A stretch of 64,000 bases of DNA from an uncultured Pelagibacteraceae bacterium (GCA_902518165.1 CABYFB010000006.1:2303-66302); one strand, 5' to 3'. Shown: positions 21,349-25,497, numbered from the stretch's first letter. Numbers and translations: made by a program. The notes: generated by a model from the sequence alone, not told the origin.

Positions 21349-22401
21349 TTAGATTTTAGGTTCTTGTTGGGTCATGCAATGTATTGCACCAAACCCCCAT
21401 ATCAATTTGCTACAGTCAACTGTTTCGATTTTTCTATTTCTAAAGTAATTTTTGAAAATTTTAATTGCAATATTGTCTTCTTTTACTCTAAATATTGGAA
21501 GAATTATTTTTTTATTACAAATATAAAAATTCATATAACTTGCAGGAACTCTTGTATTCTCAATATAAATTGGTGAAGGCATAGGAACTTTTATAATTTT
21601 GAATTTCTTTCCTTTCTCACATTTACTTTCTTTCAATATATTTAAATTCTTATTTAAGTTTTTATAATTTATATCTTTTTTATTATTTTCAACCGCAGTC
21701 ATAATCGTATTTCTTGAAACAAATCTTGATATGTCGTCAACATGTCCATGTGTATCATCGCCTGCAATTCCTTTTTTAAGCCATATAAAGTTTTTTATAT
21801 TTAAGTATTTATTAAACATTTTTTCGTAGTCTTTTTTTTTAAAATTTTTATTTCTTTCTTGAATTTTGCTTAACAAACATTCTTCAGTTAATAGAATTGT
21901 ACCTGAGCCATTTACATCAAATGCCCCTCCTTCCATGATTATTTTTCTAATTCTGTCTTTTTTTTTGATTATTGGATCAATCTTTCTACAATTAGCAATT
22001 TTACTAATACTATTATTGATTTTATTGTCGTTTTTATAATTTTTATACTTTGACCATCCGTTAAAACCAAAATTTAGTATTACTTTTTTCTTTTCAACTT
22101 TATTTGTTATAAATATGGGTCCAGAATCTCTTAACCATATTCTATCAGTTTTAATATAGTGGAAGTTGATATTTTTAATTTTATTAAGTTTTATTAATTT
22201 TTTTATATTTTTTATATTTTTGCTAACGATTAAATTAATTTTTTGATTTTTTGAAATTTTTTTTATAATTTTTAAAATTACTTCAGGAATAAATTGATAT
22301 AGTCCAGGCCAATCATTTTTATTATAAGGCCAAGCAACCCAAACTGAATTTTGAGGCTCCCATTCTGCCGGCATTCTAAATCCATTAAAGTTTTCATTCA
22401 T
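21349..22401 (-). CDS. aguA: Agmatine deiminase
   Basis: RMPAEWEPQ, WLRDSGP, EGG, DDTHGHVD, ASYMNF, GAIHCMTQQEP. Confidence 0.93.
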   Translation of the reverse strand: MNENFNGFRMPAEWEPQNSVWVAWPYNKNDWPGLYQFIPEVILKIIKKISKNQKINLIVSKNIKNIKKLIKLNKIKNINFHYIKTDRIWLRDSGPIFITNKVEKKKVILNFGFNGWSKYKNYKNDNKINNSISKIANCRKIDPIIKKKDRIRKIIMEGGAFDVNGSGTILLTEECLLSKIQERNKNFKKKDYEKMFNKYLNIKNFIWLKKGIAGDDTHGHVDDISRFVSRNTIMTAVENNKKDINYKNLNKNLNILKESKCEKGKKFKIIKVPMPSPIYIENTRVPASYMNFYICNKKIILPIFRVKEDNIAIKIFKNYFRNRKIETVDCSKLIWGFGAIHCMTQQEPKI

Positions 22402-23275
22402 CTGCAGGATTTTTTAGTATGCCTTTATAAAAATCGATTCTTCTATCTCTAAAAAAAGGCCAATGCTCTCTGGCTGAATCAATTTTTTTATAGTTTATGT
22501 CGCGAATTAAAATTTCTTCTTTTTTATTCCCAAGTTTTCCAATTATTTGCCCACTAGGATCTATGATCATTGAGTTTCCCCAGAATTCTATTTTCTTCTT
22601 ACCTTTTTTTTCTGTTCCAACTCTATTTATAGCAACCACATAAGTACCATTTGCGATTGCGTGAGATTTTTGCATTGTTATCCAGGAGTCTATTTGAGAT
22701 TTTCCAAATTTTTTTTTCTCTTTAGGATGCCATCCAATAGCAGTAGGGTAAAAAATTATTTGTGCACCTTTAAGTGCAGTCAATCTTGCAGCTTCTGGGA
22801 ACCATTGATCCCAACAAATTAAAGGTCCAATTTTACCAAATTTTGTTTTAACAGATTTAAAACCTAAATCTCCAGGAGTAAAATAAAATTTTTCATAATA
22901 ACCAGGATCATCTGGTATATGCATTTTTCTATATTTTGATAAAATTTTACCTTTCTCGCTAATAACGATACTAGTATTATGATAGAAGCCATGTGTTTTT
23001 TTTTCAAATAATGAAATCATTAATACTATTTGTAAATCTTTGGCTAATTCACAAAATATTTTTGTAGTTCTGCCAGGTATTTTTTCCGCTAGCTTAAAGT
23101 TGGAATGACTTTCTATTTGACAAAAATAATTTGATAAAAATAGTTCTGGTAAACAAATTATTTTAGCTTTTTTTGATGCTGCTTTTTTTATATTTTTAAT
23201 AGCTGAATTTATATTTTTTTGAATATTATCTGAAATTTTACTTTGAATAATTCCAATTTTTACTTTTTTGATCAT
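22394..23275 (-). CDS. aguB: N-carbamoylputrescine amidase (nitrilase family)
   Basis: Catalytic E (LPELF), K (YRKMHIPDDPGYYEKFYFTPGD), C (ICWDQWFPEAAR); next to aguA. Confidence 0.88.
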   Translation of the reverse strand: MIKKVKIGIIQSKISDNIQKNINSAIKNIKKAASKKAKIICLPELFLSNYFCQIESHSNFKLAEKIPGRTTKIFCELAKDLQIVLMISLFEKKTHGFYHNTSIVISEKGKILSKYRKMHIPDDPGYYEKFYFTPGDLGFKSVKTKFGKIGPLICWDQWFPEAARLTALKGAQIIFYPTAIGWHPKEKKKFGKSQIDSWITMQKSHAIANGTYVVAINRVGTEKKGKKKIEFWGNSMIIDPSGQIIGKLGNKKEEILIRDINYKKIDSAREHWPFFRDRRIDFYKGILKNPADE

Positions 23276-23278
23276 CAA

Positions 23279-24319
23279 TCAAAATATTTTGGAAAAGTTT
23301 TTTCTGTCTCTATTTTTCCACTCTCCAGTATGATAGGCGTCACTTGCAATTAATGGTAAAACACTGGTAGCTTCAGCAAATACCATTTGTTCTTTGGTAG
23401 TATCAACCTTACCCCATGAACTTGCTTCTTTTAATGTTGAACTACTGCAAGCTCCATCTCTTGAGTCAGCAACAGTAATTTGTATTGCATATTTGTGCAT
23501 ATCTACATTTTTTCCCAAAAGTTCAGCACAAATTACCGTGTCTTGTATAAAGTTTTTAGGAACTCCACCACCAATCATAAATAATCCTGACCCTTTAGAT
23601 TTTATTTTAATCTCTGTTAATTCTCTAAATTCTCTAATTGAGTCTATTGTAATATGATTTTTTGGATTTCTCTCTTGATGCATGACTAATCCAAAACCTG
23701 CACTTGAGTCTGTAAATGCAGGACAGAATATAGGTACATCGTTATCAAAAGCTGTTTCAATTAAAGAACCTTTCTTTTTAGAATTAGTTTTTAGATATTT
23801 ACCAATCTCTTTAATAAATTCTCTAGATGTGTAAGACTTCGGCTCAAGTTTGTCTGCTATTTCTCCTATTGTTTTATCACAAACTTGGAGCTCCTCTTCA
23901 TCGATGTAAGTATCATAAATCCTATCTATATAATTGTCTCTAAGTTCATTATCATTTTGATATTGTGATCCTTGGTAATGTTTAAATCCAAGCGCTTCAA
24001 AAAAATCCATATCTATTATAGATGCTCCAGTTGCTACAATTGCATCTACCATGTTGTATTTAACCATATCTCTATAAATATGCATACATCCAGCTGCAGA
24101 AGTAGACCCTGCAAGCGTTAAGAATATTGTACAATCTTTATCTTTAAGCATTTCATTATATATTTTAGATGCATTAGCAGTTTCCCTGGAAACAAAAGAC
24201 ATTTTTTCCATAGATGATATAATTTTTCTTGAGTCAAATGATGTAATATCAATATGCTCAACCTCTTTACTTAAAAAGTCTTTCTTTCTGTTATGATTAA
24301 GATTTTTTGTATCTGACAT
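23279..24319 (-). CDS. Deoxyhypusine-synthase-like aminobutyltransferase (SpeY-like)
   Basis: TLAGSTSAAG, YDTYI, GGGVPKN, DGACSSSTLKEASSWGK with the catalytic Lys of the SWGK motif. Confidence 0.88.
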   Translation of the reverse strand: MSDTKNLNHNRKKDFLSKEVEHIDITSFDSRKIISSMEKMSFVSRETANASKIYNEMLKDKDCTIFLTLAGSTSAAGCMHIYRDMVKYNMVDAIVATGASIIDMDFFEALGFKHYQGSQYQNDNELRDNYIDRIYDTYIDEEELQVCDKTIGEIADKLEPKSYTSREFIKEIGKYLKTNSKKKGSLIETAFDNDVPIFCPAFTDSSAGFGLVMHQERNPKNHITIDSIREFRELTEIKIKSKGSGLFMIGGGVPKNFIQDTVICAELLGKNVDMHKYAIQITVADSRDGACSSSTLKEASSWGKVDTTKEQMVFAEATSVLPLIASDAYHTGEWKNRDRKNFSKIF

Positions 24320-25497
24320 TATGCAACAAGAAACTCTTTATTTGTTTCTTTGTCATACATCGTCATAATCGGATCATCATAAACTTCGTAAATACTATCA
24401 GAATAATATCCATTAAATTGAGTTCTAAATGTCAAACCGTATGCTCCCAATTGACCTAGTTCAATGTAATCACCTTCTTTTATATTATTAGGTAGAATGA
24501 AAGGTCCCTTCATATAATCCATGCTATCACATGTTGGTCCATAAAAATCAAATGAAGTCAATTTTTTTGATATAATTCTTCCACTTGTAATTATCCTTGA
24601 TGGATAAACTATATTAGGCACACCTGCATCAAATAAAGTTCCGTATGTTCCATCATTAATATATAGCTTTTGTTTTTTTCTTAAGTTTACTCTCACAATT
24701 GTCGAACCACTTTCTGCAACAATTGCTCGACCTGGCTCACATATAATTTCTGGTTTTTTTTCTAATTTTAATTTATTTAATGAATTTTTTATTTCCTCAA
24801 AATAAGAGTTTAATGATTGAGGAATTAAGTCAGGATAGATTGTTGGAAATCCTCCACCTATATTTATAAAATCTGGAACTATTTTTGTTTTTTTTATTAT
24901 ATATTTAATTTCGTTAATCCCTTTTGAATAGGATATTGGATGCATACATTGCGAACCCACATGAAAACTTAATCCTATTTTTTTTGCATACTGTTTTGTT
25001 AATCTATAAAGCCCTATTGCTTCAGAAGTTTGTGCGCCAAATTTTTTAGATAAATCTATTTCTGCGTGTTCATTGGAAACTGCAACTCTTACAAATAACT
25101 CCAAATCCTTAGCTTGATTAGTACTATTAAGAATTTTTATTAATTCATCTTTTGTATCTATTGAAAAAGTCTTAATATTATATTTGAAATATGCTTCGTT
25201 TATACTTTCCTTGCTTTTTACGGTATGCATGTAGGAGCATTTTGCATCTGGGCTAACACTTCTAATTGCCTCAACTTCTTTAATTGAAGCGATATCAAAA
25301 TCATTAATTCCGCTTTCCACGATAGTTTTTAATACTAATGGATGCGGATTAGTTTTGACTGCATATAGGATTTTACCAGGAAATTTATTCTGAAAAAATT
25401 TAGAAGCTATGTTTATAGAATCTCTTCTAATACAATAAACAGGTTCTGTTGGTTTCAGTTGGTTAACTAATTTATCAACTGATTTAAATTTTTGCAT
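24319..25497 (-). CDS. Fold-type III PLP basic amino acid decarboxylase (ODC-like; substrate Orn or Arg unresolved)
   Basis: YAVKTNP (PLP Lys), FHVGSQ, GGGFP, EPGR, GPTCDSMD. Confidence 0.88.
   Translation of the reverse strand: MQKFKSVDKLVNQLKPTEPVYCIRRDSINIASKFFQNKFPGKILYAVKTNPHPLVLKTIVESGINDFDIASIKEVEAIRSVSPDAKCSYMHTVKSKESINEAYFKYNIKTFSIDTKDELIKILNSTNQAKDLELFVRVAVSNEHAEIDLSKKFGAQTSEAIGLYRLTKQYAKKIGLSFHVGSQCMHPISYSKGINEIKYIIKKTKIVPDFINIGGGFPTIYPDLIPQSLNSYFEEIKNSLNKLKLEKKPEIICEPGRAIVAESGSTIVRVNLRKKQKLYINDGTYGTLFDAGVPNIVYPSRIITSGRIISKKLTSFDFYGPTCDSMDYMKGPFILPNNIKEGDYIELGQLGAYGLTFRTQFNGYYSDSIYEVYDDPIMTMYDKETNKEFLVA

What the first reader, a model, noticed from the sequence alone, without database searches (positions are those of the whole stretch)
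21349..25497. Four-gene polyamine operon suggesting a variant agmatine route to homospermidine
Seen: a tightly abutting operon encoding an ODC-fold decarboxylase, a DHS-like enzyme with intact SWGK lysine, AguB and AguA. Known: AguA plus AguB convert agmatine to putrescine; ODC-fold enzymes can be arginine decarboxylases (e.g. the PBCV-1 enzyme); in Anabaena a DHS homologue (SpeY) works with SpeA and SpeB to make homospermidine. Inference: a true ODC would make AguAB redundant, so the decarboxylase may act on arginine. The DHS-like enzyme may join agmatine or putrescine units, and AguA/AguB (not an agmatinase) would remove the guanidino groups. I do not recognise this enzyme combination as characterised.
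Basis: partly seen in the sequence, partly recalled or inferred. Interest (0 to 1): 0.7.

Follow-up and report, generated by a model that had tools for sequence, protein, structure and literature searches.

The report
SAR11 agmatine-to-homospermidine (diagmatine) operon

Summary
Four abutting or overlapping minus-strand genes at 21349-25497 encode an ODC-fold decarboxylase, a DHS homologue with an intact SWGK lysine (K304), an AguB-like amidase and an AguA-like deiminase.

- The decarboxylase is the syntenic orthologue, 79% identical, of the Pelagibacter SCGC AAA797-I19 "ODC". That enzyme was shown to act only on arginine (PNAS 2023).
- JBC (Sept 2026) showed that SpeY from the freshwater relative Fonsibacter couples two agmatines to N1,N9-bis(guanidino)homospermidine (G44G). 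That genome is reported with the same four enzymes clustered. Its AguA homologue converts G44G to the bis-carbamoyl form (C44C).

Only the last step, AguB acting on C44C, remains unassayed.

Two things were seen in passing:
- In other marine SAR11 genomes the AguB+AguA pair is replaced, at exact gene boundaries, by one agmatinase-fold gene. One of these genomes is about 96% identical to the window in the flanking DNA.
- The operon has a conserved leader with a terminator-like hairpin.

Interest is low to moderate.

The parts
25498..25642 (-). Promoter and 5' leader of the operon. It holds -35-like TTTACA, -10-like CATAAAT, a short hairpin (GCATA-GCAGT-TATGC), T8, GTTAAA, a second T8, GGAG and the ATG. 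It is a candidate attenuator.
   Evidence: Sequence read. The layout is conserved across 153 marine loci, with at least three different stem sequences in front of an almost invariant T8-GTTAAA-T8. 79% of 63 unique versions fold at or below -1.5 kcal/mol, against 38% of mononucleotide shuffles. There is no Rfam match. Function not tested.
24319..25497 (-). Alanine-racemase-fold PLP decarboxylase (392 aa). It is an ODC homologue inferred to be an L-arginine decarboxylase that makes agmatine.
   Evidence: Pfam PF02784 and PF00278. No NCBIfam model is passed. The nearest solved structures are bacterial Lys/Orn decarboxylases (2plj, 9e-38), and catalytic motifs are intact. It is 79% identical and syntenic to the SCGC AAA797-I19 enzyme, which PNAS 2023 found to be Arg-specific.
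23279..24319 (-). SpeY (346 aa), a deoxyhypusine-synthase homologue inferred to be N1,N9-bis(guanidino)homospermidine (G44G, 'diagmatine', caldomycin) synthase.
   Evidence: Pfam DS 3e-98. NCBIfam NF002699 equivalog, 576.7 bits against a cutoff of 500. K304 aligns with human DHS K329, E298 with E323, F209 with D243 and C291 with D316; Thermus CdmS has F204 and L286 at the last two positions. It is 63-67% identical to Sphingomonadales SpeY, including a Rhizorhabdus species. The exact sequence was seen on about 1,000 contigs.
22394..23278 (-). AguB/NCPAH homologue (294 aa from the TTG, probably 293 aa from the ATG at 23275). Inferred to be the bis(carbamoyl)homospermidine (C44C) amidohydrolase that releases homospermidine, CO2 and NH3.
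   Evidence: CN_hydrolase 4e-63. TIGR03381 aguB scores 301.7, below its cutoff of 410. Solved relatives are 6mg6 (6e-80) and Medicago NCPAH 5h8i (6e-71). The E45/K118/C155 motifs are present. This step was not assayed in any published work I found.
21349..22401 (-). AguA/AIH homologue (350 aa). Inferred to be a G44G iminohydrolase ('diagmatine iminohydrolase') that gives C44C and 2 NH3.
   Evidence: PAD_porph 2e-107. It falls below both NCBIfam agmatine-deiminase cutoffs (265 against 483; 247 against 382). It is much closer to the uncharacterised C. tepidum protein 1xkn (1e-82) than to proven agmatine deiminases (about 1e-48 to 1e-44). The catalytic cysteine motif HCMTQQ is present. It is the fastest-evolving gene of the operon, 62-98% identical among marine relatives.

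Best explanation
The window comes from a marine Pelagibacteraceae (SAR11) chromosome. The operon is a complete agmatine-dependent ('diagmatine') pathway to sym-homospermidine.

Step 1. The ODC-fold enzyme decarboxylates L-arginine to agmatine. This is shown for the 79%-identical syntenic orthologue and inferred here.

Step 2. SpeY uses NAD and its lysine K304. It oxidises one agmatine, carries the 4-guanidinobutyl group as an enzyme-imine and transfers it to the amine of a second agmatine. The product is N1,N9-bis(guanidino)homospermidine (G44G), with NH3 released. The product is shown for Fonsibacter, Rhizorhabdus, Thermus and other SpeY proteins. The mechanism is inferred from DHS.

Step 3. 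The AguA homologue deiminates both guanidino groups to give bis(carbamoyl)homospermidine (C44C). This is shown in vivo for the Fonsibacter pair and in vitro for the R. wittichii enzyme, and inferred here.

Step 4. The AguB homologue hydrolyses both carbamoyl groups to give homospermidine, 2 CO2 and 2 NH3. This step is inferred and has not been assayed anywhere.

The four genes are translationally coupled and probably transcribed from one promoter behind a structured, U-rich leader.
For: - Gene content, order and junctions.
- The organism is a marine Pelagibacteraceae and the operon is conserved.
- SpeY passes the curated NF002699 cutoff. It has Phe and Cys in place of the spermidine-binding D243 and D316 of human DHS, while K329 and E323 are kept.
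- The decarboxylase is orthologous, by synteny and 79% identity, to the Arg-only enzyme of SCGC AAA797-I19.
- JBC 2026. Fonsibacter SpeY accumulated G44G (2.2e8) in E. coli lacking agmatinase, and hardly any homospermidine (8e4 against a background of 1.7e4). C44C was detected only when SpeY and AIH were co-expressed. The R. wittichii AIH was inactive on agmatine.
- AguA fails the curated cutoffs for canonical agmatine deiminase and clusters with a different subfamily.
- Homospermidine was measured in cultured SAR11 HTCC1062.
- Seawater metatranscriptome contigs at 95% identity or more cover the whole operon and span all three gene junctions.
Against: - No enzyme from this window, or from a marine AguB/AguA-type SAR11, has been assayed.
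- I could not retrieve the Fonsibacter sequences, so closeness to those tested proteins is inferred from taxonomy and from the gene order reported in the papers, not measured.
- The AguB homologue looks like an ordinary NCPAH (6e-71 to the Medicago enzyme). Its action on C44C is untested anywhere.
- Canonical AIHs also accept G44G, and P. aeruginosa AguA accepts both substrates. Sequence alone therefore does not prove that the window's AguA rejects agmatine.
- Noell et al. found only low homospermidine in SAR11 cultures, and none natively in HTCC7211.
- The metatranscriptome contigs carry no strand information, and one also runs into the divergent regulator gene. DNA carry-over is therefore not excluded.
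Confidence: 0.85

Rival explanations
1. Classical route. The decarboxylase makes agmatine, AguA and AguB convert free agmatine through N-carbamoylputrescine to putrescine, and SpeY then condenses two putrescines (or spermidine plus putrescine) to homospermidine. This is how chlorovirus PBCV-1 was described, and how PNAS 2023 drew the pathway for Pelagibacterales.
For: The gene names fit. AguB is close to proven NCPAHs. PNAS 2023 described SpeY as making homospermidine from putrescine. Low levels of putrescine and agmatine were seen in SAR11 cells.
Against: In JBC 2026 every SpeY tested, including the Fonsibacter one, made G44G and almost no homospermidine in an agmatinase-less E. coli. By my knowledge of E. 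coli, that strain still makes putrescine through ODC. The SpeY-associated AIH of R. wittichii had no detectable activity on agmatine. The window SpeY lacks the two aspartates that bind the polyamine amines in DHS. The window AguA fails the canonical AguA cutoffs.
Confidence: 0.08
2. Shared hydrolases. In this streamlined genome the AguA/AguB pair is not G44G-specific. It also processes free agmatine or N1-aminopropylagmatine, and so supplies putrescine or spermidine for the SAR11 AdoMetDC-aminopropyltransferase fusion as well as homospermidine.
For: Diverse AIHs accept agmatine, N1-aminopropylagmatine-type substrates and G44G. SAR11 makes spermidine natively and relies on multifunctional enzymes. 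No other route from arginine to putrescine is visible in this operon.
Against: The SpeY-associated enzymes that have been tested (DIH, DUH) were strictly G44G-specific. The Pelagibacter aminopropyltransferases are not among the Spm/Tspm synthases reported to make N1-aminopropylagmatine. The rest of the genome was not examined here.
Confidence: 0.05
3. Protein modification. The DHS homologue modifies a translation factor (a hypusine-like modification of EF-P), and the other genes supply or recycle the donor.
For: Only the homology to deoxyhypusine synthase and the retained catalytic lysine.
Against: Bacterial SpeY proteins yield free G44G and are described as not involved in deoxyhypusine formation. 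There is no IF5A or EF-P gene in or beside the operon. The donor-binding aspartates of true DHS are replaced.
Confidence: 0.02

Closest known systems
Ca. Fonsibacter ubiquis (freshwater Pelagibacterales) ODC/ADC-SpeY-NCPAH-AIH cluster (PNAS 2023 Fig. 2; JBC 2026 Fig. 2A)
   Same: Same bacterial order and, as reported, the same four enzyme families in one cluster with the ODC homologue directly upstream of speY. The Arg-only decarboxylase, G44G formation by SpeY and C44C formation by SpeY plus AIH were shown experimentally.
   Different: The window is a marine Pelagibacteraceae. I could not fetch the Fonsibacter sequences, so percent identity is unknown. The final amidase step is untested in both.
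Ca. Pelagibacter SCGC AAA797-I19 and HIMB isolates: ADC-SpeY-SpeB cluster
   Same: The same chromosomal slot, between the response-regulator gene and the Vut_1 gene. ADC is 79% and SpeY 89% identical to the window proteins. The ADC of this strain was assayed and is Arg-specific.
   Different: The terminal module is a single arginase-fold ureohydrolase (releasing urea) instead of AguB plus AguA (releasing NH3 and CO2).
Thermus thermophilus caldomycin synthase CdmS plus aminopropylagmatine ureohydrolase (Kobayashi et al. 2024)
   Same: Agmatine homocoupling by a DHS homologue through a catalytic lysine. A hydrophobic residue replaces human DHS D243: F204 in CdmS and F209 here.
   Different: CdmS has Leu and the window protein has Cys at the D316 position. 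The Thermus pathway uses a long-form SpeA-type ADC and a ureohydrolase, in a different phylum.
Anabaena SpeA-SpeY-SpeB homospermidine pathway (Burnat et al. 2018, as cited)
   Same: A DHS homologue is essential for homospermidine and the pathway depends on agmatine.
   Different: It uses a SpeA-type ADC and an agmatinase-fold hydrolase. The window SpeY scores well below the cutoff (183 against 450) on the other NCBIfam model, NF001980 'homospermidine biosynthesis protein'.
Chlorovirus PBCV-1 ADC-AIH-NCPAH-HSS pathway
   Same: An ODC-fold enzyme turned arginine decarboxylase, plus AIH and NCPAH, with homospermidine as the end product.
   Different: PBCV-1 uses the unrelated putrescine-dependent HSS, so its AIH and NCPAH act on free agmatine. 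Its ADC evolved independently. The window enzyme keeps Asp (D282) in the NDG motif. From my own recollection, not checked here, PBCV-1 has Glu at that position.
Pseudomonas aeruginosa aguBA agmatine-to-putrescine pathway
   Same: Homologous AguA and AguB enzymes and the same aguB-aguA gene order.
   Different: That pathway works on free agmatine. The window proteins fall below NCBIfam's curated cutoffs for AguA and AguB and sit behind speY.

Membership tests
[quoted passage not shown] | Deoxyhypusine-synthase fold, with a score above NCBIfam's curated equivalog cutoff | tested here: met
   Pfam DS 3e-98. NF002699 scores 576.7 bits against a cutoff of 500. All true-DHS models fall below their cutoffs.
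[quoted passage not shown] | Catalytic lysine and neighbouring glutamate retained, with the spermidine-binding aspartates of DHS replaced | tested here: met
   K304 aligns with K329 and E298 with E323. F209 replaces D243 and C291 replaces D316. CdmS has F204 and L286 at these positions.
[quoted passage not shown] | Encoded together with an arginine decarboxylase and a guanidino-removing hydrolase | tested here: met
   The operon is ADC-SpeY-AguB-AguA. It is conserved in all but 2 of 80 marine loci, and the alternative form carries SpeB.
[quoted passage not shown] | Forms G44G from two agmatines, and does not form homospermidine from putrescine | not testable with these tools
   Shown for Fonsibacter, Rhizorhabdus and other SpeY proteins in JBC 2026. 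The window protein is 64% identical to the SpeY of a Rhizorhabdus species (L134).
AR-fold ODC homologue neofunctionalised to arginine decarboxylase (Pelagibacterales type) | Alanine-racemase-fold PLP decarboxylase with intact catalytic residues | tested here: met
   PF02784 and PF00278. K48, H179, E254 and C323 motifs are present.
AR-fold ODC homologue neofunctionalised to arginine decarboxylase (Pelagibacterales type) | Orthology to an enzyme shown to be Arg-specific | tested here: met
   79% identity over 394 aligned residues, in the same flanking context, to the 394-aa ORF of strain SCGC AAA797-I19 (L167). PNAS 2023 assayed a 394-aa ODC homologue from that strain. That the accession is the same is inferred from strain and length.
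AR-fold ODC homologue neofunctionalised to arginine decarboxylase (Pelagibacterales type) | Activity on L-Arg and none on L-Orn or L-Lys | not testable with these tools
   Needs an enzyme assay. No sequence determinant of the switch is known to me. The NDG aspartate (D282) is retained.
Canonical agmatine deiminase AguA | Score above the curated family cutoff | tested here: not met
   NF010070 scores 265.5 against 483, and TIGR03380 scores 247 against 381.8. The protein is closer to the uncharacterised 1xkn (1e-82) than to proven AIHs (about 1e-48 or weaker).
G44G (diagmatine) iminohydrolase, DIH | PAD_porph fold with the catalytic cysteine, encoded with speY | tested here: met
   PF04371 2e-107. 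HC342MTQQ is present. It is the last gene of the speY operon.
G44G (diagmatine) iminohydrolase, DIH | Active on G44G and inactive on agmatine | not testable with these tools
   Shown only for the R. wittichii enzyme. Formation of C44C was shown in vivo for the Fonsibacter pair.
N-carbamoylputrescine amidase AguB / proposed C44C amidohydrolase | Nitrilase-superfamily fold with the Glu-Lys-Cys triad | tested here: met
   PF00795 4e-63. E45, K118 and C155 motifs are present.
N-carbamoylputrescine amidase AguB / proposed C44C amidohydrolase | Score above the curated aguB cutoff | tested here: not met
   TIGR03381 scores 301.7 against 410.25.
N-carbamoylputrescine amidase AguB / proposed C44C amidohydrolase | Hydrolyses C44C to homospermidine | not testable with these tools
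   Not assayed by anyone. JBC 2026 states that pure C44C was not available.
True deoxyhypusine synthase (IF5A-modifying) | Score above the DHS equivalog cutoffs and the spermidine-binding D243/D316 present | tested here: not met
   The best DHS model, NF002006, scores 303 against 434. D243 is replaced by F and D316 by C.

The most novel reading that the evidence does not exclude
The last module of the pathway may be an exchangeable cassette in marine SAR11 populations. AguB+AguA returns all four guanidino nitrogens as NH3, while the single agmatinase-fold SpeB loses them as two urea. The cassette is swapped by recombination at exact gene boundaries, and the choice may be selected by nitrogen economy in oligotrophic water. 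The swap itself is shown here. The adaptive meaning is speculation. I found no paper describing this polymorphism.
Probability: 0.3. Interest if true: 0.5.

Novelty: already known. Interest (0 to 1): 0.3.

Why it matters
SAR11 is among the most abundant bacteria in the ocean, so its way of making polyamines matters for marine nitrogen and arginine budgets and for pelagiphage biology. Some pelagiphages carry their own arginine decarboxylase.

The operon shows that the recently discovered diagmatine route is present in many marine SAR11 genomes, in the variant that releases ammonia rather than urea. For this scan, the value is mainly as confirmation: a reader working from sequence alone correctly deduced a pathway that had been published only weeks before the literature cut-off.

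Three points remain open:
- the unassayed final amidase step;
- the substrate range of the SAR11 AguA and AguB;
- the meaning of the AguBA/SpeB cassette polymorphism.

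Tried and rejected
- Fetching the Fonsibacter locus for a direct identity measurement failed. All four genome-collection scans were saturated by marine SAR11, Sphingomonadales or Phycisphaerales hits. No sequences are in the held supplements.
- Protein-database searches with SpeY returned only near-identical marine sequences without names. Cluster look-ups gave no RefSeq accessions for the decarboxylase.
- The sigma-70 and terminator pattern scan was uninformative in this 29% G+C DNA. 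It found fewer promoter-like sites than in shuffles.
- Rfam found nothing in the window or the leader.
- Phycisphaerales SpeY loci, the next closest NF002699 members, carry no ADC, AguA, AguB or SpeB within 6 kb. They say nothing about partner choice.
- An EF-P or hypusine-like role was considered and rejected (see rivals).
- A catabolic agmatine-deiminase pathway was considered and rejected. No putrescine transcarbamoylase, carbamate kinase or antiporter gene was found next to the operon or among the window ORFs scanned.
- No structure prediction was run. The residue-level alignment to human DHS answered the active-site question.

Full report

Yes. The ORF list gives four co-directional minus-strand ORFs with exactly the stated limits: 25497..24319 (392 aa), 24319..23279 (346 aa), 23278..22394 (294 aa) and 22401..21349 (350 aa).

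The genes are packed as tightly as possible:
- The first stop and the second start share a base (TAATG).
- The second stop TGA is followed at once by TTG ATG.
- The third and fourth genes overlap by 8 nt (ATGAATGA).
- The last stop abuts the stop of a convergent gene (TAATTA).

Pfam assigns the four products as follows:
- Orn_Arg_deC_N plus Orn_DAP_Arg_deC;
- DS (3e-98);
- CN_hydrolase (4e-63);
- PAD_porph (2e-107).

The TTG-started form of the third protein is not in the protein collection, whereas the other three are. Its real start is therefore probably the ATG one codon downstream.

**2. Where does the window come from?**

G+C content is about 29% throughout. The DHS-like protein has identical or near-identical copies in hundreds of single-cell and metagenome-assembled genomes labelled marine Pelagibacteraceae. 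The exact sequence was seen on about 1,000 contigs.

The rest of the window is ordinary core chromosome. It holds ATP synthase, proBA, Obg, class-I LysRS, PyrD, L28, PolA, two-component systems, AhcY, an RND pump and an ABC importer. Among the ORFs scanned there are no other polyamine genes and no urease.

**3. What the four proteins are**

*The DHS homologue.*
[quoted passage not shown] It fails every true-DHS model.
- Aligned to human DHS, it keeps the catalytic lysine (K304 aligns with K329) and the nearby glutamate (E298 with E323). F209 and C291 stand in place of D243 and D316.
- Kobayashi et al. 2024 singled out exactly these two positions (F204 and L286) as the difference between the Thermus agmatine-coupling enzyme CdmS and human DHS.

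*The decarboxylase.*
- It passes no NCBIfam model.
- Its nearest solved structures are bacterial Lys/Orn decarboxylases, followed by eukaryotic ODC and the PBCV-1 arginine decarboxylase.

*The AguA homologue.*
- It falls well below both curated agmatine-deiminase cutoffs.
- It is far closer to an uncharacterised Chlorobium protein (1xkn, 1e-82) than to any proven agmatine deiminase (about 1e-48 or weaker).

*The AguB homologue.*
- It is below the aguB cutoff but close to real N-carbamoylputrescine amidases.

**4. Published experiments on relatives**

PNAS 2023 (PMC9992855) purified the ODC homologues of Ca. Pelagibacter SCGC AAA797-I19 (394 aa) and Ca. Fonsibacter ubiquis.
- Neither was active on ornithine or lysine, and both were active on arginine.
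- The paper drew the two gene clusters: an arginase/agmatinase homologue in Pelagibacter, and NCPAH plus AIH in Fonsibacter.

Kobayashi et al. 2024 showed that the Thermus SpeY homologue couples two agmatines.

JBC, 23 September 2026 (PMC13625781), reported the following:
- SpeY proteins from diverse phyla, including Fonsibacter and Rhizorhabdus wittichii, accumulate G44G in E. coli lacking agmatinase, and almost no homospermidine.
- Co-expression of Fonsibacter SpeY with its AIH yields the new compound bis(carbamoyl)homospermidine (C44C).
- The R. wittichii AIH acts on G44G and not on agmatine.
- The final amidase step could not be tested for lack of C44C.

Noell et al. 2021 measured homospermidine natively in SAR11 strain HTCC1062.

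**5. How the window connects to those experiments**

A scan with the agmatinase-fold protein found in a variant locus (section 7) returned the contig of strain SCGC AAA797-I19 itself (L167).
- Its 394-aa ODC homologue lies in the same slot, between the response-regulator gene and the Vut_1 membrane-protein gene.
- It is 79% identical to the window decarboxylase, and its SpeY is 89% identical. The window enzyme is therefore the orthologue of an assayed arginine-specific decarboxylase.

The window SpeY is 63-67% identical to Sphingomonadales SpeY proteins, including one from a Rhizorhabdus species. In those genomes, too, an ODC homologue sits directly upstream.

I could not retrieve the Fonsibacter sequences. 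That link rests on taxonomy and on the gene order reported in the papers.

**6. Most likely mechanism**

1. Arginine is decarboxylated to agmatine by the ODC-fold ADC.
2. Two agmatines are coupled by SpeY to give G44G plus NH3.
3. G44G is deiminated by the AguA homologue to give C44C plus 2 NH3.
4. C44C is hydrolysed by the AguB homologue to give homospermidine plus 2 CO2 and 2 NH3.

Steps 1-3 are shown for homologues and inferred here. Step 4 is inference only.

The classical reading has AguA and AguB making putrescine, which SpeY then condenses. It is disfavoured by the JBC 2026 data and by the missing aspartates in SpeY. A protein-modifying role has nothing in its favour beyond homology.

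Seawater metatranscriptome contigs at 95% identity or more cover the whole operon and span all three junctions.
- This fits a single expressed transcript.
- The contigs are unstranded, however, and one runs on into the divergent neighbour, so DNA carry-over is not excluded.

**7. Things noticed that go beyond the finding**

(a) *A cassette swap.* The four-gene order is kept in all but 2 of the 80 loci closest to the window; a few of these are cut off by contig ends before AguA.
- In L031 and L048, AguB+AguA is replaced by a single 291-aa arginase-family gene.
- L031 is 96.2% and 96.8% identical to the window in the DNA on either side. Homology breaks exactly at the SpeY stop and at the AguA/Vut_1 stops, so 1,929 bp are exchanged for 887 bp.
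- The agmatinase-type form is itself common. All 80 loci returned with that protein as query carry it, including the HIMB isolates.
- Identity classes of ADC and AguA are incongruent between lineages, which suggests recombination inside the operon.
- One module returns nitrogen as ammonia and the other as urea. An ecological meaning is possible but untested.

(b) *A structured leader.* The 145-bp region upstream of the operon is conserved in layout across 153 marine loci.
- It holds promoter-like hexamers, then a short hairpin whose stem sequence differs between lineages, then T8, GTTAAA, a second T8 and the ribosome-binding site.
- No gene lies upstream on that strand for it to terminate.
- It looks like an attenuator. 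Rfam has no match.

**8. Verdict**

The system is already known: the cluster was drawn in 2023 and the chemistry published in 2026 for a member of the same order. I found no description of this marine AguB/AguA-type operon itself.

The open points are the unassayed last step, the true substrate range of the SAR11 AguA and AguB, the cassette polymorphism and the leader.

Noticed in passing
window 21350-23277; L031 7043-7929; L048 7048-7923; L161-L240: The AguB+AguA pair (1,929 bp) is replaced at exact gene boundaries by a single 291-aa arginase-fold SpeB homologue (887 bp) in other marine Pelagibacteraceae genomes. One of them (L031) is about 96% identical to the window in 6.7 kb and 4.3 kb of flanking DNA. 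Both forms are common among the loci sampled. The SpeB proteins of L031 and L048 are 87% identical to each other and 83% identical to the common type.
   Followed up: partly
window 25498-25642 (minus strand): Conserved operon leader: -35/-10-like hexamers, a short hairpin with lineage-specific stem sequences, then an almost invariant T8-GTTAAA-T8 tract and the ribosome-binding site. It looks like a terminator-type attenuator. No upstream gene lies on that strand, and there is no Rfam match.
   Followed up: partly
L001-L080 compared with window 21349-25497: The four genes evolve at very different rates among marine relatives: SpeY 90-100% identical, AguB 81-98%, ADC 76-99% and AguA 62-98%. The ADC and AguA identity classes do not agree. 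Lineages with the closer ADC (82-85%) have the more distant AguA (62-68%), which suggests recombination inside the operon.
   Followed up: no
window 23275-23278: The AguB ORF opens with TTG ATG. The TTG-started protein is not in the 15-billion-sequence collection while the other three proteins are, so the real start is probably the ATG at 23275 (293 aa).
   Followed up: partly
window 23279-24319 (SpeY residue N256): Human DHS has His288 in its GGGVVKHH motif. In the alignment the window SpeY has Asn at that position (GGGVPKNF). I did not check whether this is general for agmatine-coupling SpeY proteins.
   Followed up: no
L081-L160 and L241-L320: Sphingomonadales keep an ODC homologue (41-45% identical to the window decarboxylase) directly upstream of speY, with no AguA/AguB within 6 kb. 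Phycisphaerales (Planctomycetota) carry an NF002699-class speY with none of the partner genes within 6 kb.
   Followed up: partly
window 20800-21351: The convergent Vut_1-family membrane-protein gene and aguA end stop-to-stop with no intergenic base (TAATTA), an example of extreme genome compaction.
   Followed up: no
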